DNA of 64,000 nt from Pseudomonadota bacterium (GTDB taxonomy: Bacteria; Pseudomonadota; Alphaproteobacteria; GCA-2746255). The stretch lies in NCBI GenBank assembly GCA_040752895.1, contig JBFMHN010000005.1, forward strand, positions 139,626-203,625, written 5' to 3'. Below the pieces are notes generated by a model. It was not told the DNA's origin. It saw nothing but the letters and a program-made list of their open reading frames with translations, and ran no database searches. Below are positions 1 through 59,258 of the stretch, piece after piece; the stretch's first letter is position 1, and each line of letters starts with the position of its first letter. The position numbers were made by a program, and so were the translations under genes.

Positions 1-549
1 AGGACCGTCGCGTCGCGGCTTTCGTCGTCGCCCGGGCGCGGCGGTGCCGAAGCGCTTGTTTTTGCTACTGAACTTCGTCCCATCATCATGCCTTTCCACT
101 CTTTCGTGTGTTGGCATGACGGCGTTGGTCAGGCGGGAAGTCGAGGCAACTGTCTCCGCAGTCTTCAGATAAAGAAGTTGACTTGGCCGTGTGGAGACGA
201 ACGAGCCCCAGGCCCAGGATGCGCCCGACTTCCGCGATGCGCTCGTTCGGCGTCATCCGTTCAGGAGCGATGGCGTTGGGGCCTGCAAGGCTCGCGTGCA
301 TGTAATGGAGACCGTCCGCAAAGCGATGTCGATGGCGGGACGGTAGGGGTGGATTTCGAGAAACAGAAGTAAATTCAATCGCTTATCGCAGCCGCGCGCA
401 AACAAAGGAAGCCGCGCGCGCCCTCTCGCATGTAAGCGATTGACTCTCGCGTCTGGCGAGAACAAAAATAGAACCCGGCTTCGCCGGATGAACAGACCGG
501 CGTGCGAAGCTACACACCGGTTGGACCAGTCCGAGCGAAGGAAAAGGGG

Positions 550-2481
550 ATGAACGAACTCCCAGGGGGCGACGTTGCCGAAAGCGAGAACGATCAGGAT
601 GGCCGCCGGCCGCACCACCGCATCCTGAACCTGGAGGTGGTGGGCGGGTTTCTCGACGGCACCCGGCTCGAGTTCACCGACGGACTCAACTGCATCATCG
701 GCGGCCGCGGCACCGGCAAGACCACGGTCCTCGAGTTCATCCGTTACATCCTCGGCATGATGCCCGATCCCGCCGACAGCCGGCCGCGTGCCAAGGCCAT
801 CGAAGGCCACGTGCGCGGCAATCTTGGCAGCGGCACGATCTATCTTGATGTTGAGACCAAGCACGGCACCCGGTATCGCGCCGAGCGGCCATGGGGCGAC
901 GACGTCCAGGTCCTGGACAGCGACGGCGATCCGATTCCCGTGTCGCTCGACCGCGATCTCGTGTTCAAGGCCGACATCTACAGCCAGAATGAGATCGAGG
1001 AGATTGCGACCAATCCGCGGTTCCAGCTCTCGCTCATCGACAAGTTTGCCGAGGAGGCGATCCGCGCGGCCAGCGTCGAGATTCAAAAGGCCAAGCGCGC
1101 CATCCAGCAGAGCGCCACCGATCTCCGGCATCTCGACCAGCGCATCCGCGAACTTCAGGACGTGGTCCCCGAGATCGAAGTTGTCGGCAAGCGCCTTCAG
1201 GAAATGCAGGTGGTCGAGGGCGCGGACGCGCAGCTGATCAACGCGGCCCACGCGCACAAGGCGCTGCGGACCCGGGAGACGGAGGCTGTCACCGATCTGC
1301 GCCGGGCGGTCGGGGCAGCCGCCGCGAGCTTCCGACGCTTTGCCGACTCGGTCGCGGAGGATTGCGCGAACGCCATTGGCGACGGATTCCGCGAGGGCCC
1401 GAATGGCGACCTGTTCGAGGAGATGGAGACCGCCGTCGAGGAGTTCGTCAGCGTATTCCGGGACGCCGTGCCCAAGGTCGAGAGTCGATGCAACGCTCTC
1501 ACCTCACGCCTCGACGACGTGACGCATCGGCTTGCGGCCGCGCATGCCCGGCAGGAGCAGCAATATCGCGAGATCATCGCCCGCTCGGCGCAGGAGCAGC
1601 AGCGGGCGGCCGAGCGGGCGAAGCTGCAGCAGCGGCATCTCGCGTTGACCAAGGCGCGGCACGAGCTGGATGGCCTGCGCCAGAAGCGGAAGGCGCTGGA
1701 GGCCAGCCACCGCCAGATGAACACGAAGCTGTCAGAGCTGCGCGACCGGCGGTTCGGGCTGCGCAAGGAAGTGGCCGAACGGCTCTCCGCCGCGCTCGGT
1801 CCGACCATCCGAGTGTCCATCACCCAGTCCGGTGACCGTTCCGGCTACGAGGCCCTGCTCAAGGACATGCTCAAGGGGAGCGGCCTTCAGTACAACCGCA
1901 TCGTCTCGCGCCTCGTCGAGAGCGTGTCGCCTGAGGAGCTGTCGCGGATCGTCCGCAAGGGCGATGCGGCACGTCTTGCCGAGGATGGCGGCATCGCCGA
2001 GGACCAGGCGCTCCGCATCGTCACCCATCTCCAGGATGGCGACGATACGGCCAAGCTGGAGACGATCGATCTGGAGGACGAGCCGCTGATCGCGCTCAAG
2101 GACGGCGCCGATTTCAAGAACTCGGCGGACCTGTCCACGGGCCAGCGCTGCACCGTCATCCTGCCGATCCTGCTGCTCGAAAGCGAGCGGCCGCTGCTGA
2201 TCGATCAGCCGGAGGACAATCTCGATAACGCCTTCGTCTACCACGCCATCGTCAAGAGCCTGCGCGAGGTGAAGGCCAGCCGGCAGCTGATCTTCGTGAC
2301 CCACAACCCGAACATCCCCGTCCTCGGCGAGGCGGAAAGGGTGTTCGTCTTCACCTCCGACGGCCGGCGCGGCGCCGTCTCCCACGTGGGAACGGTGGAT
2401 ACCGTGAAGGAGCAGATCGAGCACCTGCTCGAAGGCGGCAAGGAAGCCTTCGTCCTCCGCATGCAGAAGTACGGCCACTGA
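550..2481 (+). CDS. SMC/RecN-like ABC-type ATPase with central coiled coil
   Basis: Walker A GGRGTGKTT near the N-terminus. Long Q/R/E/A-rich coiled-coil middle. C-terminal ABC signature-like LSTGQR, Walker B LLIDQPEDNLD and H-loop VTHN. Start at 550 chosen because AAGGGG sits upstream of that ATG (the six-frame ORF opens at 502). Confidence 0.7.
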   Translation: MNELPGGDVAESENDQDGRRPHHRILNLEVVGGFLDGTRLEFTDGLNCIIGGRGTGKTTVLEFIRYILGMMPDPADSRPRAKAIEGHVRGNLGSGTIYLDVETKHGTRYRAERPWGDDVQVLDSDGDPIPVSLDRDLVFKADIYSQNEIEEIATNPRFQLSLIDKFAEEAIRAASVEIQKAKRAIQQSATDLRHLDQRIRELQDVVPEIEVVGKRLQEMQVVEGADAQLINAAHAHKALRTRETEAVTDLRRAVGAAAASFRRFADSVAEDCANAIGDGFREGPNGDLFEEMETAVEEFVSVFRDAVPKVESRCNALTSRLDDVTHRLAAAHARQEQQYREIIARSAQEQQRAAERAKLQQRHLALTKARHELDGLRQKRKALEASHRQMNTKLSELRDRRFGLRKEVAERLSAALGPTIRVSITQSGDRSGYEALLKDMLKGSGLQYNRIVSRLVESVSPEELSRIVRKGDAARLAEDGGIAEDQALRIVTHLQDGDDTAKLETIDLEDEPLIALKDGADFKNSADLSTGQRCTVILPILLLESERPLLIDQPEDNLDNAFVYHAIVKSLREVKASRQLIFVTHNPNIPVLGEAERVFVFTSDGRRGAVSHVGTVDTVKEQIEHLLEGGKEAFVLRMQKYGH

Positions 2482-2491
2482 GGCGGCCGCC

Positions 2492-3616
2492 ATGACGGAG
2501 GAGGAAGAGCAGACCCTGCTCGGGGATCTCGACGCGGACGACTGGGGCACGGTCCGGGAAGCCATCGAGCAGGTGGGAGACTGGCTTCGCACGCAGCATG
2601 TCGATGACCTCCTGAGGTCGGAGCTCGCGTCCCGCCTCCTGCGCCTGTCCTCCCATCCCAAGTGGGAGGTCCGCAAGGCCGTTGCCCACGCGGTGCTCTT
2701 CCTCCGTCACGATGCCTTTCCCGCGGTGATCGCCCGGATCGTCGAGGATGAGAACGCCTGGGTCCGCGAGGCGGCGCGGAAGACCCTGCAGCGGCGCAGC
2801 GAACTCAGCCGGGCCGATATTCATGGCGACAGCCGCGGCGACACGATCCTCGGCCTCCTCTCCGCCCTGGAGGCCCGCTACGGGCTGCGCGCGCGGCGGG
2901 CGGCGCTCAATGTCGCCGACCATCTGCATCACCGCTTCGTGCGCGAGGCGTACCACGAGATCGTTCGGATCATCTCGCCGCTCGATGCCTCGCTCCTCAA
3001 CCTGGAAAAGGAGCTCCAGGGCATACCGGGTGTCCCCGACCACACGCTTCTCCATGCGCGCCGGGCCCAGGCGCGCGTGCGGCTGATCACCGAATTCCTG
3101 GACAATCTCCGGGCGTTCACGACCGAGGCGCCGGCCGAGTTTGCCCTGGAGGCTCTGGTCCCCATCGTGAAGGAGGCCGCCGAGCTTGCCCTCAGCCACG
3201 TCGAGCTTCCCACCGCCGGCATCGACGTGCGCCAGGAGGTCGACGGCTCCTTGAACCTGGAAGCGAACCGCTCGCGGCTGCTGCAGGCCCTCATCAACAT
3301 CATCGTGAACGCCGTCGAGGCCTGTTCGAACCAGCCGCGCCGCGGCGTCCTGACCATCTCCGCCACCCCGCAGACGGATTCGCATATCAAGATCACGGTC
3401 ACCGATAACGGCTGCGGCATGAGCGAGGAGGCGCTGCGCGACTGCGTTCTGCTCTACAGCTCGGGCAAGGCCAACGGGATGGGCTTCGGCCTTCCGCTGG
3501 CAAAGAAGATCATCGAGATCGACCATCAGGGAACGCTGTCGATCGAGAGCCGCGACGGCGTGGGCACCACTGTGACGGTGATCCTGCCCGTAGAGCAGGC
3601 GCGTTCGGAGGACTGA
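2492..3616 (+). CDS. cytoplasmic sensor histidine kinase, HEAT-repeat N-terminus with HWE/HisKA_2-type H-box and HATPase_c
   Basis: HEAT-like repeats (HPKWEVRKAVAHAV..., ENAWVREAARKTL). H-box-like ADHLHHRFVREAYHEIVRII. HATPase_c motifs ITVTDNGCGM and GMGFGLPLAKKIIE. No transmembrane segment. Starts 11 nt after the ATPase gene ends. Confidence 0.7.
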   Translation: MTEEEEQTLLGDLDADDWGTVREAIEQVGDWLRTQHVDDLLRSELASRLLRLSSHPKWEVRKAVAHAVLFLRHDAFPAVIARIVEDENAWVREAARKTLQRRSELSRADIHGDSRGDTILGLLSALEARYGLRARRAALNVADHLHHRFVREAYHEIVRIISPLDASLLNLEKELQGIPGVPDHTLLHARRAQARVRLITEFLDNLRAFTTEAPAEFALEALVPIVKEAAELALSHVELPTAGIDVRQEVDGSLNLEANRSRLLQALINIIVNAVEACSNQPRRGVLTISATPQTDSHIKITVTDNGCGMSEEALRDCVLLYSSGKANGMGFGLPLAKKIIEIDHQGTLSIESRDGVGTTVTVILPVEQARSED

Positions 3617-3621
3617 CTCCG

Positions 3622-4398
3622 ATGGCCGATCGCCACATCGCTCTCATTGTGGAGGATGAGCCGGAGATGGCCGCCGAGCTTGCCGATCTCCTGCGGTCCT
3701 TCGGGCACGATCACCTGCATGCCGAAACCCTCGCCGATGCCAGAGCGTGTCTCGATGAAGGCGGCTTCTGCTACGTGCTGCTCGATCTGCAGATCAAGGC
3801 GGACGGTCAGTCGATCAAGCCGAGGGTGGAATCGGGCATGTCGCTTCTGCGCGAGATACGCAAGCGCTTCCCCCATCGCAGCGCCAACGACATGCATCTC
3901 GTGCCGGTGCTCGTGATCAGCGGGCACGGCAAGGAACCGAAGAACATCATCAGCGCATTCAAGGACGGCATCAACGACTTCATCATGAAGCCGCTCAGCG
4001 TCGACGGCCAGGACGTCGGCGCCAAGATCCGCCGCTGCCTGGAGCTCGCCGGCCGAAGCGACCACGACGCCTGCGAAGCGTGCACTCGTGCGGCGGCGGC
4101 CGGTCCGGCCGAGAAGCAGTACAATGGGACGGCGTTCTGGCACGCGTCCGACTACTCGGAGATTCGCCTGCGCGGCGAGCCCTATTACTTCACGGGCGAG
4201 ATTCAGCAGGCCGCGATCCGCTTTCTCCACGCGGCGGCGCAGACGGACGAACCATGGCGTTCGGGCAAGATCGTGCTGCAGGCGGCCAAGTCGAATGACA
4301 CGAACATGCGGATGGTCAACCTGTTCGGCCGCCATCCGGCCTGGGGCGTGCTGCTGCTCTCGAACGGGCGAGGGAAATACCGTCTAAGGACCGAGTAG
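3622..4398 (+). CDS. response regulator (REC domain) with an uncharacterized ~120 aa C-terminal output domain
   Basis: REC motifs: IALIVEDEP..., acceptor Asp in YVLLDLQIK, and VPVLVISGHG. The C-terminal half has no recognisable DNA-binding or enzymatic motif. Starts 6 nt after the kinase gene. Confidence 0.7.
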   Translation: MADRHIALIVEDEPEMAAELADLLRSFGHDHLHAETLADARACLDEGGFCYVLLDLQIKADGQSIKPRVESGMSLLREIRKRFPHRSANDMHLVPVLVISGHGKEPKNIISAFKDGINDFIMKPLSVDGQDVGAKIRRCLELAGRSDHDACEACTRAAAAGPAEKQYNGTAFWHASDYSEIRLRGEPYYFTGEIQQAAIRFLHAAAQTDEPWRSGKIVLQAAKSNDTNMRMVNLFGRHPAWGVLLLSNGRGKYRLRTE

Positions 4399-4538
4399 TC
4401 CTTCGCAAACCCGGCCATCACCGGTCCATCACTGGGCCGGTACGCTCCAGCGGCGATCCGCCGCCGGTCCTGCGGACAGCGTTACTCCGCAGGACCATCC
4501 TCTCCGCAGGTTTTCGTTGAAGGCCGAAGGAGAGGAGC

Positions 4539-4724
4539 GTGACCGTCCGACATCTCACCCAAGTTGAACTTGCCCAGCGCTGGCGGATCAGCCCGCGCAC
4601 GCTGGAGCGCTGGCGCTGGCTCGGCCAGGGGCCGCGATATCTCAAGATCGGCGGGCGCGTCGTCTATCGACTCGAAGATGTCGAGGCCTTCGAAGACGAG
4701 AAGCGGCAGGAGGCAGGCCGATGA
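4539..4724 (+). CDS. AlpA/excisionase-like HTH DNA-binding protein (prophage regulatory protein)
   Basis: 61 aa. The segment LTQVELAQRWRISPRTLERWRWLGQGPRYLKIGGRVVYRLEDVEAF is typical of the AlpA/Xis HTH family. Sits at the left edge of the phage gene block. Confidence 0.7.
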   Translation: MTVRHLTQVELAQRWRISPRTLERWRWLGQGPRYLKIGGRVVYRLEDVEAFEDEKRQEAGR

Positions 4725-5161
4725 CGGCAGGTCTTCAGAGTCGCGATTTCGCGGAATCCCGCACGGATAACTTTGTTTTCTCTCCGGTTCGCGGGCGAAA
4801 CCGCGCGAAATCATTCGAATTGGTGCCCGCAGCGCGAGCCGGTATTTCAATGGGGATGAAGATCCCCGAGCCCATCCGCACCATCGTCACCAGCGAAGCC
4901 GCGCTGTTCGGCTGGTTCGAGACGGCCCGGCCCGGCGAGCGCTTCACCTATCACATCGGCCACCTGGCAGTGGATCGCGCGCGGGAGACCTCGGGCCTGG
5001 CCGCAGGCGCGCGCGAGGCACTCGGCCGCGTCGCCGATCGCGTCATGGCGCTGGCCGGGCAGGAGATGCTGATCGCCGTGCAGCAGCGGCTCGACGATGG
5101 CCGCATGGCCTATCTCGCGATCAAGGCGGGCATGCGCGCCGCCAGGACGTGTGCGCGATGA
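4721..5161 (+). CDS. hypothetical phage protein
   Basis: ORF overlaps the AlpA-like gene by 4 nt. No recognisable motifs. Confidence 0.35.
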   Translation: MTAGLQSRDFAESRTDNFVFSPVRGRNRAKSFELVPAARAGISMGMKIPEPIRTIVTSEAALFGWFETARPGERFTYHIGHLAVDRARETSGLAAGAREALGRVADRVMALAGQEMLIAVQQRLDDGRMAYLAIKAGMRAARTCAR

Positions 5162-5327
5162 CGGCCCGACCGGCACTCGACGACGTCCGGCACATGCCGG
5201 TGCGCGATCTGCTCGCTCTGCCAGCGGAGCAGTTGGTTCGGCTCCGCCGCGAAGCCCGCATGGCCCGCGAAACAGCTGACCGCCTCGAGCGGTGGCTCGA
5301 CGGCATCGCCCGGATCCAGGGAGGAGC

Positions 5328-14879: not shown

Positions 14880-15050
14880 CGCCACCGCCAGCGGCGGAAT
14901 CTGAGTTACCAGTTACCACCGAGCCGGCCGCCCGTCGCACGAATTAAGCCCGTGTTCGCGCGGGCTTGGCGCGCCTCCCGAATGGGAGCCGCGCCCCGGT
15001 AACCGTCCCCGGCAGTTACCACCCTCCGGTTACCACCCTGTCCTTCCGGA
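14880..15050. promoter_or_regulatory. cluster of five GTTACC(ACC) / GGTAACC repeats upstream of the methyltransferase genes
   Basis: gagttaccagttaccaccgag ... ccggtaaccgtcc ... cagttaccaccctccggttaccaccctg, all within ~150 bp before the first ParB-MTase start. Confidence 0.45.
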
Positions 15051-15061
15051 TTCCGAGGTCC

Positions 15062-16471
15062 ATGTCGCCACGGCTGCCCGACAGCGTCGAGCATTGGCCG
15101 CTCGACCGGCTGCGCGCCTACGCACGCAACCCGCGCACGCACTCGGACGAGCAGGTGGCGCAGATCGCAGCGAGCATCGTCGAGTTCGGCTGGACCAGCC
15201 CGGTGCTGGTCGCGGGCGACGGCACGGTGATCGCCGGGCACGGCCGCCTCGAGGCAGCCCGCCGTCTCGGGCTCGATGCCGTGCCGGTCGTGGTGCTCGA
15301 CCACCTGAGCGAGGCGCAGCGCCGGGCCTACGTGATCGCGGACAACAAGCTGGCGCTCAACGCCGGCTGGAACGAGGAGCTGCTCGCCGCCGAGCTGCAT
15401 GCATTGAACGGCGAAGGCTTCGACTTGGCGCTCACCGGCTTCGACGAGGCCGAGCTCGACCGGCTGATGGCGCCGCTCGACGACACGGAGGCGATGTCGC
15501 CGGGTGGCGACACTGGCGAGAACGGCGACGCCGCGGACGAAGCGCCCGAGCCTCCGCGCAATCCGGTCACCCGGCCGGGCGATCGCTGGCAGCTCGGCGA
15601 TCACTGGCTGCTCTGCGGCGACAGCACCGATGCTGCCGTTGTCGCACGCGTGATGAATGGCGAGCGCGCGTCGCTGCTGTTTACCAGTCCGCCCTACGGC
15701 AACCAGCGGAATTACACGACTGGCGGGATCGGCGACTGGGATGCGCTGATGCGCGGCGTCTTCTGCCACCTCGATGAGGCGATGGCGGAAGACGGCCAGG
15801 TGCTCGTCAATCTCGGCCTCGTCCATCGCGACAACGAGTGGCAACCTTATTGGGAAGCCTGGCTCGCCTGGATGCGAGCCCAGGGCTGGCGGCGCTTCGG
15901 CCTTTACGTCTGGGACCAGGGGCCTGGACTTCCCGGAGACTGGAACGGCCGGCTCGCGCCCTCATTCGAGCTGCTATTCCACCTCAACCGCCTAGCGCGC
16001 AAGCCGAACAAGATCGTGCCCTGCAAGTGGGCCGGGCACATCAACGACAGCCACGGCGGCATGCGGGGCAAGGACGGCACCGTGGGCGAGTGGACTCATG
16101 CCGGCCAGGGCGTCCAGGAGACGCGCATCCCCGACAACGTCCTGCGCATCACGCGGCACAAGGCGCGCGGCATCGAGACCGAGCACCCGGCGGTGTTTCC
16201 GGTGGCGCTGCCCGAGTTTGTCATGAGCACCTATTCGGCAGCGGGTGACGTGGTGTTCGAGCCCTTCGCGGGATCCGGCACCACGTTGATCGCTGGCGAG
16301 CGCACCGGACGGAATGTGAGAGCGATCGAACTCGCGCCCGAGTATGTGGACGTCGCGCTCCTACGCTGGCGCCAGCTGTTTCCCGGAACCGAAGCCGTTC
16401 TCGACGGGGACGGCCGGACCTTCGAAGCGATCGCCACCGAGCGTGGCATCGACCTTCACGATGCGGTCTGA
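15062..16471 (+). CDS. ParB-like nuclease domain fused to N6/N4 DNA methyltransferase (paralog 1)
   Basis: N-terminal ParB-N motifs (VLVAGDGTVIAGHGRLEAARRLG). MTase motif IV SPPY (LLFTSPPYGNQ) precedes motif I FEPFAGSGTT. Confidence 0.75.
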   Translation: MSPRLPDSVEHWPLDRLRAYARNPRTHSDEQVAQIAASIVEFGWTSPVLVAGDGTVIAGHGRLEAARRLGLDAVPVVVLDHLSEAQRRAYVIADNKLALNAGWNEELLAAELHALNGEGFDLALTGFDEAELDRLMAPLDDTEAMSPGGDTGENGDAADEAPEPPRNPVTRPGDRWQLGDHWLLCGDSTDAAVVARVMNGERASLLFTSPPYGNQRNYTTGGIGDWDALMRGVFCHLDEAMAEDGQVLVNLGLVHRDNEWQPYWEAWLAWMRAQGWRRFGLYVWDQGPGLPGDWNGRLAPSFELLFHLNRLARKPNKIVPCKWAGHINDSHGGMRGKDGTVGEWTHAGQGVQETRIPDNVLRITRHKARGIETEHPAVFPVALPEFVMSTYSAAGDVVFEPFAGSGTTLIAGERTGRNVRAIELAPEYVDVALLRWRQLFPGTEAVLDGDGRTFEAIATERGIDLHDAV

Positions 16472-45979: not shown

Positions 45980-46456
45980 TCATCGGCAGCTATAGCGCTT
46001 GATGGGTCGATCCGACCGCAACTCACCAGAAGGAGTCCTCCAGTCGTTGATCTGTCCTGTGACCGCATCAATGATGCGATCGCTGTTCCATCCAACCACC
46101 GCATCGGCATATTTATCGAGTGCGTCTGGTACATCACACTCGGCGGCACCATGCGCCCAAACGCCGACAATGCGCTTTTCCGCTTTGTGGGCGTACTCGA
46201 TTTCCCAATCGACCCAGGGACTGTTACGAGTCTGCGGGGAGATATAGACGATCATGGTCCCAGCCCAGCGAATGCGCGGGGCTAGGATTTCGGACTTGAT
46301 GTAGTCGGGATTGGACGCGTCATTCGGCTTCTCAGCGTTGATGGACCCGTCCCGTATACTGAAGCCCTTATTCCCGAGAAGCTCCTTCAGCTTCCCCAGC
46401 CCTTCGTCGTCCTCATGAACGTGGCTGATGAAGACGTTTCGGGTTTCCTCGGTCAT
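45980..46456 (-). CDS. TIR-like domain protein (DUF1863 / Thoeris ThsB-like)
   Basis: N-terminal VFISHVHEDDEGLGKLKELL and later SPWVDWEIEYA match the bacterial TIR_2 pattern. Confidence 0.6.
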   Translation of the reverse strand: MTEETRNVFISHVHEDDEGLGKLKELLGNKGFSIRDGSINAEKPNDASNPDYIKSEILAPRIRWAGTMIVYISPQTRNSPWVDWEIEYAHKAEKRIVGVWAHGAAECDVPDALDKYADAVVGWNSDRIIDAVTGQINDWRTPSGELRSDRPIKRYSCR

Positions 46457-46560
46457 CGAGAATCTCCTCTATCGTTTCGTCCCATCCGTAGGGTGCCCAA
46501 CTCGGGGCAAGTCATCCTACCGTCTGCGACGTGTTGACCAGTCATTGATTTCTCGCTCAC

Positions 46561-47220
46561 TTAATCCGTCATGACCAAACGGCGCATGTGGTTGCGGTAG
46601 CTGATCAGGCGCTGGTTGACCCTTTCCATATCGGCCTTCAGTTCGTCGTATTTCGGAAACTTTTGTTGAATCTCCTGTGGATCGATCACCAGATCGCCGC
46701 TGGTCTTGTTCAGCTCGTTCTCATACCAACGGCGGAATCGCGCTTGCCACATCGTCAGGTGAGGCCGTAGCCCCTCGTTCAGAACCTCGATCGATAGCTT
46801 GATAATCTTCTGGGTGCTGCTGTGCCGCACCTTGTTGACGGGGACCGATTTTACGAGGTCCCGAGTGACGGCGAAGAATTCGTACCAACTGTTATAGATT
46901 TCAGCGATGACGTCATGGTCGAAATCGATCGGCAATCCAATTTTCCGTGTGCTCAGCTCCACCCATATTGCATAAGCTACCTGGCGATCCGTCATGTTTG
47001 GTTTGAGTCGAAGCTTGCCGGTGCCCGTTCCTATCTCGGCTTGGTCGATCTCGAAATCCTTCCAGCTGGAGCCACCAGAAAACCAACGCCAGCCAGCATA
47101 GACGAGAACCGCCACCAAGAGCGCGATACCAACCCAGAAGCTGACTTGGATCGATACCGACCAGTCCGAAAGGAGCCGTACGGACAAGAGGTCGATATTC
47201 GATTGGCTTGTGGTGTCCAT
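46561..47220 (-). CDS. membrane-anchored uncharacterized protein (single N-terminal TM plus ~170 aa cytoplasmic domain)
   Basis: TM VSFWVGIALLVAVLVYAGWRWF. Begins 5 nt after the upstream TIR gene's stop. Low GC. Confidence 0.45.
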   Translation of the reverse strand: MDTTSQSNIDLLSVRLLSDWSVSIQVSFWVGIALLVAVLVYAGWRWFSGGSSWKDFEIDQAEIGTGTGKLRLKPNMTDRQVAYAIWVELSTRKIGLPIDFDHDVIAEIYNSWYEFFAVTRDLVKSVPVNKVRHSSTQKIIKLSIEVLNEGLRPHLTMWQARFRRWYENELNKTSGDLVIDPQEIQQKFPKYDELKADMERVNQRLISYRNHMRRLVMTD

Positions 47221-47224
47221 CGAA

Positions 47225-47779
47225 TCACTCGCACTGCCGGTTGTACGTGAAGCGATCTCTGGGATTTTCGATCAAATGGGCATGTGTCGTTCGCCGCTGA
47301 AACGCCGCCTCGATGGCCTGCCATAGCTCGTCCGACGATTGCGGGTAGGCCATCCAACGGGCGAAGCAATCGCTTCCGGCAGCCTTCTTTTCAGGGGTCA
47401 GCAGATTCCTGTTCAGGCGATCCGGAAAGGCGCCATCCTCGGGGAAGGCAGGCATCTTGATGGCAAGCAACCCATTGGCAAGCCCGTTCTGCGGCGCCCG
47501 CAGCGATGCCTGGATTTCCCAGTCGACGTAGCGCCTCGCCCATGTGCATCTGCCCAGCATCACCAGCGTCACAGTCGAGTCGCGAATGTAAAGTTCGCGG
47601 ATGCGTCGCATGACGTACTCGGGGTCAGTGCTGTCAATGATGTCCTGAGCCATTGTCTGCCCTAGTCCGCGAGCAATGAACAGATTCTGCCCGTGATCAA
47701 ATGTGTTAACAAAGCGATCAACCCACGGCTGGTCGGCATGGTGATATGAGACGAAGCATTTGCGTCTCGTTGCATTCAT
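47225..47779 (-). CDS. TIR-like domain protein (DUF1863 / ThsB-like), second copy
   Basis: KCFVSYHHADQPWVDRFVNTF and RRYVDWEIQASL are classic TIR_2 motifs. Confidence 0.65.
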   Translation of the reverse strand: MNATRRKCFVSYHHADQPWVDRFVNTFDHGQNLFIARGLGQTMAQDIIDSTDPEYVMRRIRELYIRDSTVTLVMLGRCTWARRYVDWEIQASLRAPQNGLANGLLAIKMPAFPEDGAFPDRLNRNLLTPEKKAAGSDCFARWMAYPQSSDELWQAIEAAFQRRTTHAHLIENPRDRFTYNRQCE

Positions 47780-47797
47780 GGCTGACCCCAGAGATGC

Positions 47798-50560
47798 CTA
47801 TTCCACCTTTACCGCATCGGCGAGGCCGAGTTCCTGCAGGACCTGCCGAATCTCGTTCGCAAGGCCGGTCGCGGAATCGGCAGAGACAGTGACCGAGAAC
47901 TCGAGTCCGATCCTGAGTTCCGAGCCGGAGCGGAGCTTTGGCAGAATCTTCGTACCAAGGCGGTTCCAGACCTCCGGGGGGACGGCGCCCACAACGCGGA
48001 GTGTCCGTGTTGAAGTTGCGGGCTCGGGGGCGGGGCCAAGCGTGGGACCAGGTTCCGAAACGGGCGGGACCGTGGGGCCCGGCTCGGGCTCCGGACTTGG
48101 GGTGGGCATCGCTGGCTTCCCGGCCCTGAGCGCTTCCGCCGTGCTCTTCCTCAACAGGAACACTCCGGCGTCGAAAGCGACCTCGTCAGACGCAACCGCC
48201 TCCTGGAACCAGATCCGCTCGTACGTGCCGTCGGCCTTCTTGCCCGATGCCAAGCCGAAATCGCCGCGTGTCACGAACTCGACGATCTTGGACTTCAAAG
48301 TGGCGTCGGGATCGACGAGCCGAGTCAGCGAGCCATTGAGAAAGCTCTGTCGAAGGCTCGCAAGGGGCCAGGCGCCCGAGTCCTTCAGCGCCGGTGGCCA
48401 GTTGCGCTCGATGTATCCAGCGCCGACCGACTCGTTCAGGAGCGCTTCGGACTTGAGGGCGGCGATGACGCGCCCGCAAAGCGTCTCGCCGCTTGACGAA
48501 TGTCCCGCACCGAGGTCGATCACCTTGAGCCCATCCGCTTCCTGGCCGTCGGCAAGGATGGCGAAGCGGTAGCCGCCCCAGACCTCGTCCTTGGCGGCCT
48601 CTTCCGCGTCTTTGACCTTCGACTGGAGTTCCGCCCGGTCATTGCGGTCGAACTCCCCGCCCAGCGTGCCATCGGCCACCTCGCGCGCGACCCGCCTCCA
48701 TGCGAGCGCGAGCTCCACCTTCTCGCGCAGATCCCGCCCTGGCTTCTTGAGGCACCACACGAGCGCACCCGGATAGAGTCGGGGCGACTTGCCGCGGCTT
48801 CGAGTCCACTCGGCGATCTGGGTGCGGAGCGAGCCGGTGCCGGACCATTCCGTTTCGGGATCGGCTGCGACGAGCGTCAATCTGGGCGTGTCAGGAATCT
48901 CCGCGCCGTCGCGCGGGAAGGGGACGACAGGGATGCTGGCGCCACGCCGGAACTCGTCCTCGACGAGCTTCCGCATGGCGGGTTTGACCTCTGTCTCATG
49001 GTCAAGGGACGCCCGACGGTCGCTCACAACCTTCTTCATCGTCGGCTGATAGCCGATCCGGAATCCGTCCGTCCCCACCTTGCGCAGGAAGTAGGAGCGG
49101 TCTTCAAGCGCGAAGGCGGCATTATCGATGGTCGTCGTATCCAGCTCCGGCTCGCCGAGCGCGAAGCGGAGCTCCGGGAGATGCGCGACCTTGTCGGTCT
49201 GCCCGCCCGACGATTCGAACAAGATCGCGGTGCCAACCCGCTTGTGAATGTCGCGGAGCGGTCCCTTGGTATCGGCGTCGAGCGCCCTCGCATGAGCCTG
49301 CTCGCCGGCGATATCTGTGTCGATCGCAGCGACGAGGCGGGACTCGCCGAGCTGGCCCAGCACGACGCTGCGGAAGCCCGGCTCGGCCAGCGGTGCCGAC
49401 CCGAGCGTGATCAACGGCTCGGTGCGCGCCTTGCGGAACGCGTCCTGGGCCGCCAGCGATATCCACTGGGCCAGCATCGCGAGCGTGCCGCGCGTCTGCT
49501 GGTACTGCGGCAGCGGCTGCCATTTCCGTTGGAAGACTGACAGCGTCGCCGGATGGAACGGGTAACACGTCTCGAAGCGGCGCTGGAGGAACTCGCGCGC
49601 CTTGGCCTCGGTCGCCGCGGAATCCACCGCTGTCCACTCGGGCGGGAGCTGGGCGCGCCGCTCGAAGCACCAGTCGCCAAAGGCCCGCGCGACGCTCTTG
49701 CGGATCCTTTCGCTGCCAAGGTCCTGGAACAGCCGCCGGCGCACGACCTCGCTGATCTCGGTCTCGTCGTTGGCGATCAGGTCCTTGGCGACGCGGCGCA
49801 CCACCTTCGAAATCTTGTCCTGCCACTCCTGATCCCACTCGGTCATCTCCACCTGGCTGCGGGGAAGGGAAATCACGCATGCGCCGTGCGTAGTCCCCGT
49901 CGTGGCGACGGTCAGGTTCTGAATGAACGCATGGAATGAATCAGCGCTGCCCCGGTGGCGATTGAGGAAGTTTAGGACCTCGTCGAATAGCAGAAGCACA
50001 GGTGCCCCGGCGGCCTGGAAGACCCGCGCGATCGCGTCGGTGCCCGGCGGCGTGGTTTTCGCCGAAGGACCCAGCGCCTCGACGCCCTTGTCTCCGGCGA
50101 GCTGGCGAGCGATGTCGATCCACGGCGTCTCACGCCCCTCGCGCGGATCCCATGCGTTGCCGACAAAGACCGCGACCTTCCCTTTGGGCACGGTTGCGAC
50201 GCCCGCCTCCCGCACAAGATCGGCCACGCCCGAATAGCCCGCTGCCGCCTCGCCATTGCTTACGAGGTGGTAGAGCGTCGTGAGCGTATGCGTCTTGCCG
50301 CCACCGAACTGGGTGATCAGCGTGAGCACCGGCGCGGTATTCTCGGTCTTTCCTGAGAGCCGCCGAAGCACCATTCCTGCATGCTCGCGCAACGCCCTGG
50401 TGAAGCAGGTGCGGGCGAAGAACTGGTCGGGCTTCCGGTAATCCTCCGGCGCCGTCCCGGCCACGACCTGCTCAAGCGCGATGGCGAACTCGTCGGGGTT
50501 AAACGACCGGCCTTCGCGGACTTCCTTGCGCGGCGTCGCGACCTTGTACCAAGGTTCCAT
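47798..50560 (-). CDS. DUF499 family ATPase (COG1483-like), defense-associated
   Basis: 920 aa. P-loop ITQFGGGKTHTL and Walker B LLLFDEVLNF. The protein-level assignment to the DUF499 family rests mainly on the P-loop context and the adjacent DUF1156 partner. Confidence 0.6.
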   Translation of the reverse strand: MEPWYKVATPRKEVREGRSFNPDEFAIALEQVVAGTAPEDYRKPDQFFARTCFTRALREHAGMVLRRLSGKTENTAPVLTLITQFGGGKTHTLTTLYHLVSNGEAAAGYSGVADLVREAGVATVPKGKVAVFVGNAWDPREGRETPWIDIARQLAGDKGVEALGPSAKTTPPGTDAIARVFQAAGAPVLLLFDEVLNFLNRHRGSADSFHAFIQNLTVATTGTTHGACVISLPRSQVEMTEWDQEWQDKISKVVRRVAKDLIANDETEISEVVRRRLFQDLGSERIRKSVARAFGDWCFERRAQLPPEWTAVDSAATEAKAREFLQRRFETCYPFHPATLSVFQRKWQPLPQYQQTRGTLAMLAQWISLAAQDAFRKARTEPLITLGSAPLAEPGFRSVVLGQLGESRLVAAIDTDIAGEQAHARALDADTKGPLRDIHKRVGTAILFESSGGQTDKVAHLPELRFALGEPELDTTTIDNAAFALEDRSYFLRKVGTDGFRIGYQPTMKKVVSDRRASLDHETEVKPAMRKLVEDEFRRGASIPVVPFPRDGAEIPDTPRLTLVAADPETEWSGTGSLRTQIAEWTRSRGKSPRLYPGALVWCLKKPGRDLREKVELALAWRRVAREVADGTLGGEFDRNDRAELQSKVKDAEEAAKDEVWGGYRFAILADGQEADGLKVIDLGAGHSSSGETLCGRVIAALKSEALLNESVGAGYIERNWPPALKDSGAWPLASLRQSFLNGSLTRLVDPDATLKSKIVEFVTRGDFGLASGKKADGTYERIWFQEAVASDEVAFDAGVFLLRKSTAEALRAGKPAMPTPSPEPEPGPTVPPVSEPGPTLGPAPEPATSTRTLRVVGAVPPEVWNRLGTKILPKLRSGSELRIGLEFSVTVSADSATGLANEIRQVLQELGLADAVKVE

Positions 50561-50573
50561 TGCGATCCCCCTC

Positions 50574-51533
50574 CTACGGTCTCTGCAGGCGCGCGAACAG
50601 GTCGGTCGCCGTTCTCTTCAATCGGGCCAAATTGGCGTAAGCCACGGGCTCAAACCCGCGACCGCCCGCGTACATCCGGTAGCGGATGCCGTCGGTCACG
50701 ATCACATCGCGCGGAATCCCGAGCGCCTCCACATACCCCTTCCCCTGTTCCAGCGCGCCTTCAACGCCCGCACCCAGGCGTTTGGCTTCGATCACGAGAT
50801 GACAGTTTTCCGGCGTGCGCGGCAGGGCCCGAAATACCGCGACGTCGATGTAGCGCCACTTGACGGCAATCCGCTCCGGCGGCCAGCCGAGCGCGCGCAA
50901 AAAAGGCACGATGAAATGGGCGATCAGCTCGTCCTCGCTCGGAGGTTCGCCAAAGGCCTGGGAATCCTGGAACAGCGGGACGAGATCGGCGGCCTGAGCC
51001 ACGATTCCCCGCAGCCCGTCAGGCACTTCATCGATCGGCGGTTCCTCGGCTGGAAGCTCAGGCAACGGTGCCGTTTGCCAATGCGTCGGCGGGGATTTGA
51101 TGAAGCGCTCCGTGAAATCGATCACGTCCTGGCTCCACACCCGCGAGCAGCGCGGCGGATTGGCGCCGAAGGCCTGGCCCGCGAACGTATGCGGCTCGGG
51201 GAGGCGGCACCAGCGCACCCGCCGGCCGTGTTGCAGGTCCCAGCCGTTCACGTCGTCGAACGCGTTCAGGTACAAGTAATCGCTGGCCACGAGACCGACC
51301 GCCGCGATCGTCGCAAGACCCGTGCGCAGCAGGATCGCATCTCCTACCGTGACTTCGCTTGCGAAGCGCCGTACGAAGCCGCCCTCGAACTCGTTATCGT
51401 CGCGTTCGGGTTTCCAGGCCCCTGCATCGCCCGGGCCGATCAACACGACGCCGTGCTTGAGCAGAACGTCGGCATAGGACCGCGATGCCGGCCCGGCCGA
51501 GACTTGCCACACTGTCCGAGCAGAGACGGTCAT
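50574..51533 (-). CDS. PD-(D/E)xK nuclease-like protein
   Basis: C-terminal HLVIEAKRLG (ExK) with an upstream acidic residue context. ATG at MTVSARTVWQ forms a 4-6 nt overlap with the stop of the upstream DUF1156 gene. Confidence 0.45.
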   Translation of the reverse strand: MTVSARTVWQVSAGPASRSYADVLLKHGVVLIGPGDAGAWKPERDDNEFEGGFVRRFASEVTVGDAILLRTGLATIAAVGLVASDYLYLNAFDDVNGWDLQHGRRVRWCRLPEPHTFAGQAFGANPPRCSRVWSQDVIDFTERFIKSPPTHWQTAPLPELPAEEPPIDEVPDGLRGIVAQAADLVPLFQDSQAFGEPPSEDELIAHFIVPFLRALGWPPERIAVKWRYIDVAVFRALPRTPENCHLVIEAKRLGAGVEGALEQGKGYVEALGIPRDVIVTDGIRYRMYAGGRGFEPVAYANLARLKRTATDLFARLQRP

Positions 51534-51537
51534 CGGT

Positions 51538-57995: not shown

Positions 57996-58115
57996 CGGAC
58001 ACTCCTTTGGCCTTCAACTGCCTGAACCTGAGTCTGGGCAGTGCGACCTGAAAGGCGCTCGGAGTCGTCGTCCAACCGGTTACCGAATTCAAAGACGTCC
58101 ATCCCCTCTCCCCGC

Positions 58116-59030: not shown

Positions 59031-59258
59031 TCCTGCGTGCGTAAAGGAAGTTGATTGACTGGCAGTCCTATCTCGTATAGTTTCTTATCCCATCATCGAG
59101 GCCTCGTCAACCGGTGAGCAAGGAAGCACGAACGCAGGGACCACCATGCCGGCGCCAAACCCTACAGCGGCCGATTGCGCCTCGACGCCGGAATCGGCGC
59201 AGGGTAAAAGCTTCTCAAGCGGCGTCGATCACAGTGGCGGCTGTCACTCAAGAGCAGC

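What the first reader, a model, noticed from the sequence alone, without database searches (positions are those of the whole stretch)
502..4398. Three-gene operon: SMC-like ABC ATPase, HEAT-repeat HWE kinase and a response regulator with unknown output, next to the prophage
The three genes are packed with 6-11 nt gaps. The first encodes a RecN/SMC-like ABC ATPase (Walker A, coiled coil, LSTGQR signature, Walker B, H-loop). The second encodes a soluble HisKA_2/HWE-type histidine kinase whose only sensor module is a HEAT-repeat array. The third encodes a REC response regulator with an unassigned ~120 aa output domain. ABC ATPases with coiled coils are hallmark components of several anti-phage systems (Lamassu, Wadjet, Gabija, Septu), and two-component phospho-relays have been co-opted for defense (Detocs). 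I do not recognise this exact combination as a named system. It sits directly next to the prophage's regulatory end, which is typical for defense or superinfection-exclusion modules.
Basis: partly seen in the sequence, partly recalled or inferred. Interest (0 to 1): 0.7.

Follow-up and report, generated by a model that had tools for sequence, protein, structure and literature searches.

The report
SOS-gated prophage switch: ATPase, kinase, regulator
The three genes are real, but they lie inside the prophage and most likely form a DNA-damage-gated signalling cassette (a Rad50-like ATPase, a soluble kinase and a DNA-binding regulator) that switches on the phage's early genes, not a stand-alone anti-phage defence.

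Summary
The three genes exist as described: ATPase 550-2481, kinase 2492-3616, regulator 3622-4398, with gaps of 10 and 5 nt. They are co-inherited in that order down to 34% ATPase identity.

1. The trio lies inside the prophage, between the serine-recombinase integration module and the HTH_17-led early operon.
3. That domain co-varies with an array of 11-bp-phased direct repeats that starts 14 nt after its stop codon, at the early promoter. Near-identical phages have swapped exactly this winged helix plus its repeats.
4. The trio's own promoter carries an alphaproteobacterial LexA box (GAAC-N7-GAAC, 460-474) over its -10. The box is present in 17 of 27 distinct trio loci.

The kinase is a canonical HisKA-like type, not HWE.

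Best model, from sequence only: the SOS response lifts LexA repression, the trio is made, the ATPase-assisted kinase phosphorylates the regulator, and the regulator activates the early operon, inducing the prophage.

The ATPase is a nuclease-less relative of the Ppl/TrlF PHP-ATPases. Distant trios sit in defence islands, so the sensor may have a defence ancestry. What the ATPase senses is unknown.

The parts
1..89 (-). Context: 5' end of the prophage's DUF2924 gene, part of the integration module. The serine recombinase lies beyond the window edge.
   Evidence: Translation MMMGRSSVAKTSASAPPRPGDDESRDATV. Relatives L001 and L003 carry DUF2924 plus a Resolvase/Recombinase gene at this position. 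The recombinase of L008 is 93% identical to that of L003.
86..301 (-). Context: small conserved 71-aa gene (orf71), divergent from the trio. It belongs to the integration-module backbone.
   Evidence: ORF. Found by tblastn at the same position in trio phages and in trio-less sibling phages. No Pfam hit.
376..442 (.). 10-bp inverted repeat CAATCGCTTA (376-385) / TAAGCGATTG (433-442). It flanks a conserved GC-rich core, and its right arm overlaps the -35. Function unknown.
   Evidence: Sequence, coordinates. Conserved in L001, L003, L008 and L009.
440..474 (+). Promoter of the trio: -35 TTGACT (440-445), an 18-nt spacer and a -10-like AAAAAT (464-469). The -10 is enclosed by the LexA-type box GAACAAAAATAGAAC (460-474).
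   Evidence: Promoter scan. It is the only GAAC-N7-GAAC in the 64 kb. A perfect box lies within 200 nt upstream of the ATPase start in 17 of 27 distinct trio loci, against a background of 0.028 per kb; two further viral contigs also have one. Motif identity comes from PMC3091678 and PMC12700426. Binding by LexA is inferred.
550..2481 (+). Gene 1: Rad50/SMC-like ABC ATPase, 643 aa (the ORF is open from the GTG at 502). It is a PHP-less member of the TrlF/Ppl ATPase family and the presumed sensor or co-sensor.
   Evidence: Pfam AAA_23, AAA_21 and SMC_N. NCBIfam TrlF 316 bits, matching model positions 284-944 of 944. Relatives of 865-876 aa carry PHP plus PHP_C in front of the aligned part.
2492..3616 (+). 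Gene 2: soluble histidine kinase, 374 aa. It has an N-terminal HEAT-like module (invariant HPKWEVRKAVAHA, 2654-2692), a DHp domain with the phospho-acceptor His155 (2954-2956) and a canonical catalytic domain.
   Evidence: Pfam HATPase_c 4.6e-21 and HEAT_2 1.2e-5. Alignment of 13 orthologs with invariant H-box, N, G1 and G2 boxes.
3622..4398 (+). Gene 3: response regulator, 258 aa. It has a REC domain (Asp55 at 3784-3786, Ser100, Lys123), a linker with a conserved GR..H..C motif, and a C-terminal OmpR/PhoB-type winged helix (residues 172-258, nt 4135-4395; recognition helix MRMVNLFGRHPAWG at 4306-4347).
4412..4476 (+). Array of direct repeats with an 11-bp period: strong units (T)CCATCAC at 4415-4421 and 4426-4432, then weaker in-phase TCC units. 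This is the predicted binding site of the regulator at the early promoter.
   Evidence: Lag-11 autocorrelation is 0.50 in the window, against 0.29 +/- 0.05 in shuffles (0 of 2000 reach it). The mean over 23 loci is 0.53 at lag 11 and 0.48 at lag 22, against 0.23-0.37 at other lags. The repeat sequence co-varies with the recognition helix. The window and L003/L009 are 93-100% identical in DNA except across 4101-4500. The tandem site is unique in the window.
4466..4496 (.). Perfect 11-bp inverted repeat GGTCCTGCGGA-N9-TCCGCAGGACC, found only in the window-type phages. It could be the site of a second regulator or an RNA hairpin; unexplained.
   Evidence: Sequence, coordinates. Present in L001 and L008, partly in L089, absent in L003.
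4499..4535 (+). Leader hairpin that pairs an anti-SD sequence (CCTCTCC, 4499-4505) with the Shine-Dalgarno sequence of HTH_17 (GGAGAGG, 4529-4535).
   Evidence: The MFE fold is -24.5 kcal/mol, z = -3.0. The SD region is the paired 3' arm in 66 of 68 distinct loci, and the stems differ in sequence between loci.
4539..4724 (+). Target: the first gene of the early operon, a 61-aa HTH_17 (excisionase/MerR-type) protein. It is followed by replication and recombination genes (AAA_24 ATPase, a nuclease-like protein, helicase, primase).
   Evidence: Pfam HTH_17 in relatives. There are 316 relatives in IMG/VR.

Best explanation
The trio is a signalling cassette that belongs to the prophage and sits in its genetic-switch region, between the integration module and the early (excision and replication) operon.

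Proposed order of events:
1. In a healthy lysogen, host LexA sits on the GAAC-N7-GAAC box that brackets the -10 of the trio promoter and keeps the three genes off.
2. DNA damage triggers the SOS response, LexA is cleaved, and the trio is transcribed.
3. The Rad50/SMC-like ABC ATPase acts as sensor partner of the soluble kinase, probably through the kinase's HEAT-like N-terminus. It is a nuclease-less relative of the DNA-end- and NTP-sensing Ppl/TrlF proteins.
4. The kinase autophosphorylates on His155 and passes the phosphate to Asp55 of the regulator.
5. The phosphorylated regulator binds head-to-tail, through its OmpR/PhoB-type winged helix, to the 11-bp-phased direct repeats that begin 14 nt after its own stop codon.
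6. This activates the promoter of the HTH_17-led early operon and induces the prophage.

Shown here from sequence and structure prediction:
- the gene order and strict co-inheritance of the three genes;
- their position inside the prophage;
- intact catalytic motifs in all three proteins;
- the winged-helix fold of the regulator's output domain;
- the phased repeats, and their co-variation and co-exchange with the recognition helix;
- the conserved LexA-type box.

Inferred:
- LexA binding;
- activation rather than repression of the early promoter;
- coupling between ATPase and kinase;
- the nature of the signal. My best guess is DNA ends, damaged DNA or nucleotide status, by analogy with Ppl.
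For: 1. Position.
- In relatives with longer contigs the order is recombinase, DUF2924, orf71 <-|-> ATPase, kinase, regulator, HTH_17, replication genes. These relatives are inserted at different host sites.
- The window starts inside the DUF2924 gene.
- In other viral lineages (L196, L198, L207) the trio again lies between replication genes and DUF2924 plus recombinase.

2. Output domain.
- The C-terminal model has pLDDT 91.9.

3. Target.
- The repeats have a strict 11-bp period at fixed offsets from the regulator's stop codon.
- At least four repeat types each go with their own recognition-helix type.
- The window and L003/L009 are 93-100% identical across 6.2 kb except at 4101-4500, which is the winged helix plus the repeats. 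ATPase, kinase and HTH_17 stay 97-98% identical there, so they are not the repeat binders.

4. Sibling phages without the trio.
- The gene just upstream of HTH_17 encodes a protein with a different N-terminus but a homologous C-terminal domain. It is followed by an intrinsic terminator, then phased repeats, then the same leader.
- A promoter must therefore lie within the repeat region.
- In L125 that gene is divergent from a CI-like HTH_3 + Peptidase_S24 repressor. This is the same cascade with CI in the place of LexA.

5. LexA box.
- It is the only match in 64 kb and lies on the -10.
- Perfect boxes occur in 17 of 27 distinct trio loci. The spacers vary, the half-sites are kept, and in L017-19 the box has the opposite orientation in a different promoter. 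Background is 0.028 per kb.
- The motif is documented in PMC3091678 and PMC12700426.

6. No CI/XRE-type repressor was recognised among the other candidate genes of this prophage that I scanned.

7. Phosphorelay residues are invariant.
Against: - Nothing has been tested experimentally.
- I could not identify the -35 and -10 of the early promoter with confidence. Sites at a promoter can repress as well as activate.
- Four of 21 alphaproteobacterial trio loci lack the LexA box (L007/L097, L021, L096), as do all non-alphaproteobacterial loci.
- If LexA alone gated expression, a sensor ATPase and a kinase would seem superfluous, so the model does not explain why they are kept. The ATPase is the most conserved of the three proteins.
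- Relatives in Magnetococcales lie in defence islands. The ATPase family includes the anti-phage protein Ppl and partners of TCAD9 conflict-system proteins. This favours invader sensing.
- The window-type palindrome at 4466-4496 suggests a further, unknown regulator.
- My search for a repressor elsewhere in the prophage was not exhaustive.
Confidence: 0.55

Rival explanations
1. Invader-sensing module (defence, or 'escape from a doomed host'). Low-level trio protein in the lysogen detects DNA from a superinfecting phage or plasmid, or nucleotide depletion, through the Ppl-like ATPase. The phosphorelay then fires the resident prophage's early operon. This would either abort the infection at population level or let the prophage escape.
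For: - The ATPase belongs to the Ppl/TrlF family. Ppl is reported to respond to 3'-OH DNA ends and NTP depletion (PMC12904381).
- Trios at about 50% identity sit among DarTG, RM/BrxR, AbiE and MC2/CTD6 genes, or next to NACHT and SNF2 genes.
- A relative at 32% identity pairs with a TCAD9 conflict-system protein.
- This reading explains why a sensor ATPase and a kinase are kept.
Against: - The LexA box predicts repression in uninfected lysogens.
- There is no effector gene. The only output is the phage's own early promoter.
- No PADLOC model fits the kinase or the regulator.
- The cassette occupies the switch position also held by CI-type regulators in sibling phages.
Confidence: 0.2
2. Immunity repressor. 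The regulator, phosphorylated or not, binds the phased repeats to keep the early promoter off and so maintains lysogeny. The ATPase and kinase switch it off, for example through phosphatase activity, when damage is sensed. The exchangeable winged-helix and repeat cassettes would be classical heteroimmunity types.
For: - Cassette exchange of a DNA-binding domain together with its sites is typical of repressor-operator immunity regions.
- No other repressor was recognised in the prophage.
- The sites overlap the region where the promoter must lie.
Against: - A LexA box on the repressor's own promoter would shut off the repressor in healthy cells and raise it after damage. That is the wrong sign.
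- In L125/L146 a true CI-like repressor coexists with, and is divergent from, the protein carrying the homologous domain. That domain therefore sits in the 'early' position, not the repressor position.
- OmpR/PhoB-type domains on tandem repeats with an 11-bp period next to a promoter lacking a -35 are typically activators (established knowledge of PhoB and OmpR).
Confidence: 0.13
3. Replication-origin or iteron system. The phased repeats are iterons, and the winged-helix protein is an initiator-like or copy-control factor for phage replication rather than a transcription factor.
For: - Winged-helix initiators bind arrays of direct repeats.
- The repeats lie just upstream of the replication module.
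Against: - The units are 7-9 bp at an 11-bp period, not 17-22-bp iterons.
- The best structural matches are all OmpR/PhoB transcription factors.
- In sibling phages the array sits between a terminator and a conserved mRNA leader, which is a promoter position.
- No AT-rich unwinding element adjoins the array.
Confidence: 0.04

Closest known systems
Ppl (PHP-ATPase single-gene anti-phage protein) and the NCBIfam 'TrlF family AAA-like ATPase' (NF045780)
   Same: The ABC ATPase head with its coiled-coil insert is homologous over its whole length: TrlF 316 bits over model positions 284-944, Ppl 122 bits, PADLOC Ppl 5.5e-22. Relatives of 865-876 aa align from about residue 250-272 onward.
   Different: The N-terminal PHP exonuclease of about 250-280 aa, which is the effector of Ppl, is absent. 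Scores are below both curated cut-offs (350 and 1000). Here the ATPase is a separate protein, always followed by a kinase and a regulator. I found no paper on TrlF.
OmpR/PhoB-family response regulators (PhoB at pho boxes, KdpE, PmrA, VicR)
   Same: REC domain plus a C-terminal winged helix with the beta-sheet, three helices and beta-hairpin wing. The predicted target is tandem direct repeats with an 11-bp period abutting a promoter, as for pho boxes.
   Different: There is no detectable sequence similarity to Pfam Trans_reg_C or to any PDB sequence. The linker is long and carries a conserved GR..H..C motif. The REC domain has an insertion after the phospho-Asp. The protein is phage-encoded, and its only recognisable site is next to its own gene.
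LexA-controlled prophage induction through a phage-encoded secondary regulator (coliphage 186 Tum, Gifsy antirepressors, CTXphi, GIL01) - from my own knowledge, not checked in the library
   Same: Host LexA, rather than a self-cleaving phage repressor, is predicted to gate a phage gene whose product then flips the switch.
   Different: The gated product is not a small antirepressor. It is a three-protein phosphorelay ending in a transcription factor. LexA binding is only predicted.
Phage-encoded sensory induction modules (VP882 VqmA-Qtip; transcription-factor plus small-protein modules of linear plasmid-like phages) - from my own knowledge
   Same: An accessory, exchangeable sensory module in the switch region gives the prophage an extra input into the lysis-lysogeny decision.
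   Different: Those are one-component receptors with small antirepressors. This is a two-component relay with an ABC ATPase, acting directly on an early promoter.
Defence systems built on phosphorelays: Detocs, Ambrosia (bioRxiv 10.1101/2025.09.30.679545)
   Same: A histidine kinase plus a REC protein on a mobile element. In Ambrosia the REC protein carries a winged helix that is proposed to turn on defence genes.
   Different: No restriction-modification or nucleosidase effector and no buffer REC protein are present. No PADLOC model matches the kinase or the regulator. The output is the phage's early operon.
SMC/Rad50-like defence ATPases (Lamassu LmuB, Wadjet JetC, Gabija GajA, Septu PtuA)
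   Same: ABC ATPase head with a coiled coil. Partial PADLOC matches to LmuB (5.5e-13), AriA, PtuA and GajA cover mainly the Walker A and signature regions.
   Different: No partner genes of those systems (LmuA, JetABD, GajB, PtuB) are present. The matches are to generic head motifs, and the best family match is TrlF/Ppl.

Membership tests
Two-component system (histidine kinase plus response regulator) | Kinase with a conserved phospho-acceptor His in a DHp helix and a catalytic domain with N, G1 and G2 boxes | tested here: met
   Invariant His155 in H-E-x-x-[RK]-x-x-S-P-L. N box NRSRLLQALINIIVNAVEA, G1 DNGCGM and G2 GMGFGL across 13 orthologs. HATPase_c 4.6e-21.
Two-component system (histidine kinase plus response regulator) | Receiver domain with an acidic pocket, phospho-acceptor Asp, conserved Thr/Ser and Lys | tested here: met
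   E11/D12, D55, S100 and K123 are invariant or nearly invariant in 22 sequences. Response_reg 4.2e-11.
Two-component system (histidine kinase plus response regulator) | Phosphotransfer from this kinase to this regulator | not testable with these tools
   Supported only by strict adjacency and co-inheritance.
OmpR/PhoB family of response regulators | C-terminal winged-helix DNA-binding domain of the Trans_reg_C fold | tested here: met
OmpR/PhoB family of response regulators | Sequence membership in Pfam Trans_reg_C (PF00486) | tested here: not met
   No Pfam hit beyond REC at E <= 0.1. A profile of the domain finds nothing in PDB sequences.
OmpR/PhoB family of response regulators | Binds tandem direct repeats with about one helical turn of spacing at target promoters | tested here: inconclusive
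   The 11-bp-phased repeats co-vary and are co-exchanged with the recognition helix. Binding itself is untested.
   The H-box is H-E-I-V-R-I-I-S-P-L. The N box is canonical, N-x-x-x-N-A-x-E-A, and G1 is D-N-G-C-G-M. There are no HisKA_2 or HWE_HK Pfam hits. The best NCBIfam neighbours are AtoS, ZraS and FixL.
Ppl anti-phage protein / TrlF family | N-terminal PHP (polymerase and histidinol phosphatase) nuclease domain fused to the ATPase | tested here: not met
   The match starts at TrlF model position 284. There is no PHP hit in the window protein. PHP and PHP_C are present in the 865-876-aa relatives P0352, P0359 and P0383.
Ppl anti-phage protein / TrlF family | Score above the curated family cut-off | tested here: not met
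   TrlF 315.9 bits against a cut-off of 350. Ppl 122.2 against 1000. Spaf_1101 164.4 against 475.
Lamassu / Wadjet / Gabija / Septu | The SMC-like or OLD-type ATPase is accompanied by the system's partner genes (LmuA, JetABD, GajB, PtuB) | tested here: not met
   The neighbours are a kinase, a regulator and phage genes. PADLOC gives no hit for the kinase and only weak partial hits for the regulator.
Detocs | Kinase, plus a REC-only buffer protein, plus a REC-effector (nucleosidase) protein | tested here: not met
   There is only one REC protein, with a DNA-binding output. No Detocs model hit in PADLOC.
Alphaproteobacterial LexA (SOS) regulon | GTTC-N7-GTTC or GAAC-N7-GAAC box overlapping the core promoter | tested here: met
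   Box at 460-474 over the -10. Conserved in 17 of 27 distinct loci. Motif from PMC3091678 and PMC12700426.
Alphaproteobacterial LexA (SOS) regulon | LexA binding and damage-inducible transcription | not testable with these tools
   No expression or binding data are available.
Prophage-borne defence or superinfection-exclusion cargo (moron) | Optional cargo in a variable slot, self-contained with its own effector, expressed in the lysogen | tested here: inconclusive
   Optional: yes. About 12 of 316 HTH_17-type viral contigs carry it. Self-contained effector: no. Expression in the lysogen: predicted to be LexA-repressed.

The most novel reading that the evidence does not exclude
The ATPase-kinase-regulator trio is a widespread, undescribed class of signal-transduction system. 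In it, a nuclease-less Rad50/Ppl-like ABC ATPase reads the state of DNA or nucleotides in the cell (damage, free ends, invading DNA) and reports through a dedicated HEAT-domain kinase to a winged-helix regulator. Temperate phages of several lineages would have adopted it as the master input of their lytic switch. In this phage group that means host LexA as gatekeeper and exchangeable winged-helix/operator cassettes as specificity types. Chromosomal versions would drive sigma-54 activators inside defence islands.
Probability: 0.35. Interest if true: 0.8.

Novelty: new variant of a known kind. Interest (0 to 1): 0.66.

Why it matters
If the model holds, it describes a way of controlling prophage induction that has no dedicated phage repressor. 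The host SOS repressor would gate a phage phosphorelay, and the relay's final component would activate the early promoter directly.

It would also give a function to a large family of stand-alone Ppl-like ATPases: 1138 cluster representatives at E <= 1e-30. These are invariably linked to a kinase and a regulator down to 34% identity. That would be a cytoplasmic two-component system whose sensor is an SMC-like ATPase, which to my knowledge is not an established architecture.

The natural cassette swaps of winged helix plus repeats offer ready-made orthogonal regulator-operator pairs.

The link to defence-type sensors raises a testable question: do prophages use an immune-type DNA sensor to decide when to leave the host?

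Tried and rejected
- Literature on 'TrlF': only spectroscopy papers and unrelated hits.
- Exact-sequence look-up of the window regulator: not on record.
- Sequence-profile search of the output domain against PDB sequences: no significant hit. Only the fold comparison was informative.
- GenBank phage genomes: none carries the trio, so no annotated or studied phage could be used.
- Literature searches for phage-encoded two-component lysis-lysogeny switches, and for ABC-ATPase plus kinase conflict systems, found nothing describing this cassette.
- hhalign of the output-domain profile against the QueC-like 620-aa slot protein (L105) and against the Magnetococcales regulator gave non-significant matches, E 0.14-0.17. 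Both proteins end in a G-x-Y-R-L wing-like motif, but I do not claim homology.
- Rfam found no known RNA family in 1-5300. The window has no tRNA.
- RecN/SbcC/SMC orthology is rejected: scores are far below the cut-offs, for example recN 35.7 against 407.85.
- HWE kinase is rejected.
- I could not place the -35 and -10 of the early promoter by sequence. 'CATCCT' looked like a -10, but it overlaps the 5' arm of a conserved mRNA hairpin, so I dropped that assignment.
- Autoregulation is rejected: the regulator's repeat motif is absent from the trio promoter.

Full report

Yes, with corrections. Three co-directional ORFs occupy 502-2481, 2492-3616 and 3622-4398.

Orthologs of the first protein are 641-643 aa, and a Shine-Dalgarno sequence precedes the ATG at 550. 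The ATPase therefore most likely starts at 550. The gaps between genes are 10 and 5 nt.

The ATPase has:
- Walker A GGRGTGKTT;
- the ABC signature LSTGQR;
- Walker B/D-loop LLIDQPEDNLD;
- an H-loop;
- Pfam AAA_23, AAA_21 and SMC_N.

The kinase has HATPase_c (4.6e-21) and a weak HEAT_2 match over residues 14-99. The regulator has a REC domain and about 90 C-terminal residues with no Pfam match.

**2. The trio is one co-inherited unit.**

The regulator family is tight: 148 proteins, 54-98% identity, nearly all about 258 aa.

I searched all fetched loci by tblastn with the window proteins. ATPase, kinase and regulator are collinear wherever the contig allows, both in alphaproteobacterial MAGs and genomes and in IMG/VR contigs. 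The ATPase is the most conserved of the three: for example 69% when the regulator is 55%.

The same order holds at 52%, 39% and 34% ATPase identity. In a viral-contig scan, every ATPase at or above 34% identity that had downstream sequence was followed by a kinase and a regulator. That adds about 30 further contigs. At 32% identity the partner is instead a TCAD9-domain protein.

**3. Where it sits.**

Relatives with longer contigs show this order: host genes, a 127-aa gene, a large serine recombinase, DUF2924 and orf71 on one strand; then ATPase, kinase, regulator, HTH_17 and the phage replication genes on the other. The elements are inserted at different host sites.

The window begins inside the DUF2924 gene. 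The 98%-identical relative L008 has the recombinase just beyond it. The trio is therefore inside the prophage, in the region between integration and early genes where temperate phages keep their switch.

In other viral lineages (L196, L198, L207) it again lies between replication genes and DUF2924 plus recombinase.

The HTH_17 gene has 316 relatives in IMG/VR, but only about a dozen of those contigs carry the trio. It is thus one of several alternative occupants of this slot.

**4. The regulator's output domain.**

There is no sequence-level match. That explains why the domain looked unassigned.

**5. Its target.**

The 140-nt spacer between the regulator gene and HTH_17 holds direct repeats with a strict 11-bp period, at fixed offsets of 14/25/36/47/58 nt after the stop codon.

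- Over 23 distinct loci, autocorrelation is 0.53 at lag 11 and 0.48 at lag 22, against 0.23-0.37 at other lags.
- In the window it is 0.50, against 0.29 +/- 0.05 in shuffles.

The repeat sequence goes with the recognition helix:

| Recognition helix | Repeat |
|---|---|
| NMRMVNLFGRHPAWG | (T)CCATCAC |
| AEGKMSNLFGDHPCWGK | ATCCCCCGC |
| TKMANLF..HPCWG and relatives | CATCCGCC |
| NAKMINLFRDHPCWG | ACCCGTC |

The clearest evidence is a natural swap. The window and L003/L009 are 93-100% identical in 100-nt steps across 6.2 kb, except at 4101-4500, where identity falls to 59-79%. That stretch is exactly the winged-helix coding part plus the repeats. ATPase, kinase and HTH_17 remain 97-98% identical there, so none of them is the repeat binder.

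The tandem site is unique in the 64 kb.

**6. Sibling phages generalise the architecture.**

In trio-less phages, the gene directly upstream of HTH_17 encodes a protein with a different N-terminus but a homologous C-terminal domain. Examples are a 232-aa protein in L125/L146 and 315-320-aa proteins in L102/L106/L145. That gene is followed by an intrinsic terminator, then 11-bp-phased repeats, then the same conserved leader and HTH_17. A promoter must therefore lie within the repeat region.

In L125 the 232-aa gene is divergent from a CI-like HTH_3 + Peptidase_S24 repressor. Other slot contents are XRE plus an M78 peptidase plus two unknown proteins, or a QueC-like 620-aa protein.

The regulator of the trio is therefore a REC domain fused to this phage group's own early-promoter factor.

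**7. The trio's promoter.**

Upstream of the ATPase gene lie TTGACT (440-445), 18 nt, and AAAAAT. The -10-like element is enclosed by GAACAAAAATAGAAC (460-474). GAAC-N7-GAAC / GTTC-N7-GTTC is the LexA box of alphaproteobacteria (PMC3091678, PMC12700426).

- It is the only such match in the window.
- A perfect box lies within 200 nt upstream of the ATPase start in 17 of 27 distinct trio loci (17 of 21 alphaproteobacterial ones).
- The spacers vary while the half-sites are conserved.
- In L017-19 the box has the opposite orientation, in an unrelated promoter, where it overlaps the -35.
- The background is 0.028 per kb. Two further viral contigs also have a box.
- It is absent next to orf71 in most trio-less phages, so it belongs to the trio cassette.

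**8. The kinase and the ATPase.**

An alignment of 13 kinases shows an invariant H-box, H-E-x-x-[RK]-x-x-S-P-L (His155), and canonical N, G1 and G2 boxes. This is a divergent HisKA-like kinase, not HWE/HisKA_2. The N-terminal HEAT-like motif HPKWEVRKAVAHA is invariant even in distant orthologs. It is a good candidate for the contact with the ATPase; that is an inference.

The best ATPase family match is NCBIfam TrlF: 316 bits against a cut-off of 350, covering model positions 284-944 of 944. Spaf_1101 and the anti-phage protein Ppl follow, and PADLOC's best hit is Ppl.

An exhaustive search finds 1138 cluster representatives at E <= 1e-30. Most are stand-alone proteins of 620-645 aa. The 865-876-aa members carry PHP and PHP_C in front of the aligned part. 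The window protein is thus a nuclease-less relative of the PHP-ATPases.

Ppl is described as a 3'-5' exonuclease activated by 3'-OH DNA ends and by loss of inhibitory NTPs (PMC12904381).

**9. Synthesis.**

The most economical reading is a cascade:
1. SOS removes LexA from the trio promoter.
2. The ATPase-assisted kinase phosphorylates the regulator.
3. The regulator occupies the phased sites and activates the early operon (excision-type HTH_17, replication genes).
4. The prophage is induced.

In sibling phages a self-cleaving CI-like repressor plays the part that LexA plays here. I found no CI/XRE-type repressor among the other candidate genes of this prophage that I scanned. The scan was not exhaustive.

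Still inferred: LexA binding, the sign of regulation, the ATPase-kinase coupling, and the signal.

The main weakness is that LexA gating alone does not explain why a highly conserved sensor ATPase and a kinase are needed. They may add a second condition (free DNA ends, damage, nucleotide status) or guard against leaky activation.

**10. The defence reading.**

The family link to Ppl is real. The Magnetococcales trio has a regulator with a different C-terminus and is followed by a REC-less sigma-54 activator. It lies among DarT/Macro, HsdM/S+BrxR, AbiEi/Eii and MC2/CTD6 genes. Another such locus is near NACHT and SNF2 genes.

The sensor may therefore have evolved in conflict systems. A version of the model in which it detects invading DNA and triggers induction cannot be excluded, and I give it 0.2.

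In this window, however, the cassette has no effector, targets the phage's own promoter, and is predicted to be LexA-repressed.

The window does contain a real defence island, but it is on the other side of the prophage.

**11. Novelty.**

I found no GenBank phage carrying the trio and no paper describing it. It is built from known parts, so I rate it a new variant of a known kind: a two-component system and prophage switch. The more radical reading is that it represents a general class of ABC-ATPase-coupled phosphorelays, at a probability of about 0.35.

Noticed in passing
window 45980-60308: A defence-type island lies beyond the far end of the prophage, where GC drops to 0.54-0.60 over 43-48 kb. 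It holds two ThsB-type TIR proteins (45980-46456 and 47225-47779, both on the minus strand), a DUF499 protein (47798-50560 -), an SNF2 helicase with NOV_C (54558-57995 -), a WYL regulator (58116-59030 -) and an AAA/STAND-like ATPase (59259-60308 +).
   Followed up: partly
window 4499-4535, and the same position in 66 of 68 distinct HTH_17 loci: A conserved leader hairpin pairs an anti-SD sequence with the Shine-Dalgarno sequence of HTH_17. The stems differ in sequence between phages but stay complementary. This suggests translational control of the first early gene.
   Followed up: partly
window 4466-4496: A perfect 11-bp palindrome, GGTCCTGCGGA-N9-TCCGCAGGACC, lies between the repeat array and the leader. 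It is present only in the window-type phages (L001, L008; partly L089) and absent from L003. It could be the site of another regulator.
   Followed up: no
window 376-442: A 10-bp inverted repeat, CAATCGCTTA / TAAGCGATTG, flanks a conserved core (GCGCAAACAAAGGAAGCCGCGCG) in the divergent promoter region between orf71 and the ATPase gene. The right arm overlaps the -35 of the trio promoter.
   Followed up: no
L102-L119, L125, L146 (slot between orf71/DUF2924 and HTH_17): The same slot in sibling phages holds alternative cargo: a CI-like S24 repressor plus a 232-aa protein; XRE plus an M78 peptidase plus 388-aa and 315-aa proteins; a fused HTH_3/M78 protein plus DUF3368; or a 266-aa protein plus a QueC-like 620-670-aa protein. 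Several of the proteins just upstream of HTH_17 end in the same winged-helix domain or in a wing-like G-x-Y-R-L motif.
   Followed up: partly
window 4051-4074 (regulator residues 144-151), and all orthologs: The linker after the REC domain carries a G-R-x-x-H-x-x-C motif that is conserved even in the 38-50%-identical non-alphaproteobacterial regulators, together with a nearby conserved Cys139. It could be a metal or redox site, or a docking motif.
   Followed up: no
L178 9001-14318; L179 9001-14309; L024 6849-12078; L193: In Magnetococcales, Myxococcota and other deltaproteobacterial loci the trio is followed by a sigma-54 enhancer-binding protein that lacks its own REC domain. The regulators there are 302-329 aa (or 440-464 aa with a duplicated C-terminal module). 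Direct or inverted repeats again follow the regulator gene.
   Followed up: partly
L183-L185: A stand-alone ATPase at 32% identity is paired with, and overlaps, a 677-aa TCAD9-domain protein instead of a kinase and a regulator.
   Followed up: no
window 14906-15844 (-): A minus-strand 312-aa gene with lower GC3 and no Pfam hit sits between the DUF6362 gene and the ParB-methyltransferase gene. Relatives carry a Fic protein (L007) or an HTH_3 gene (L006) at this position, so it looks like a second cargo slot of the phage.
   Followed up: no
L020 6131-8362: In one MAG the trio is degraded: only ATPase residues 418-643, kinase residues 40-211 and regulator residues 4-136 are matched. This is a decayed copy in a prophage remnant.
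   Followed up: no
L165, L171, L174, L175 (about 255 nt from orf71): Some trio-less sibling phages have a GTTC-N7-GTTC box at the start of a different, unannotated slot cargo of about 2.6 kb. LexA gating may therefore not be exclusive to the trio.
   Followed up: no
L028 and L093, between the regulator gene and HTH_17: Insertions of about 150 and 510 nt separate the regulator gene from the repeats. The last approximately 25 nt of the regulator gene are duplicated in front of the repeat array, so the conserved box GTAGTTCTGCGTAAA travels with the repeats.
   Followed up: no
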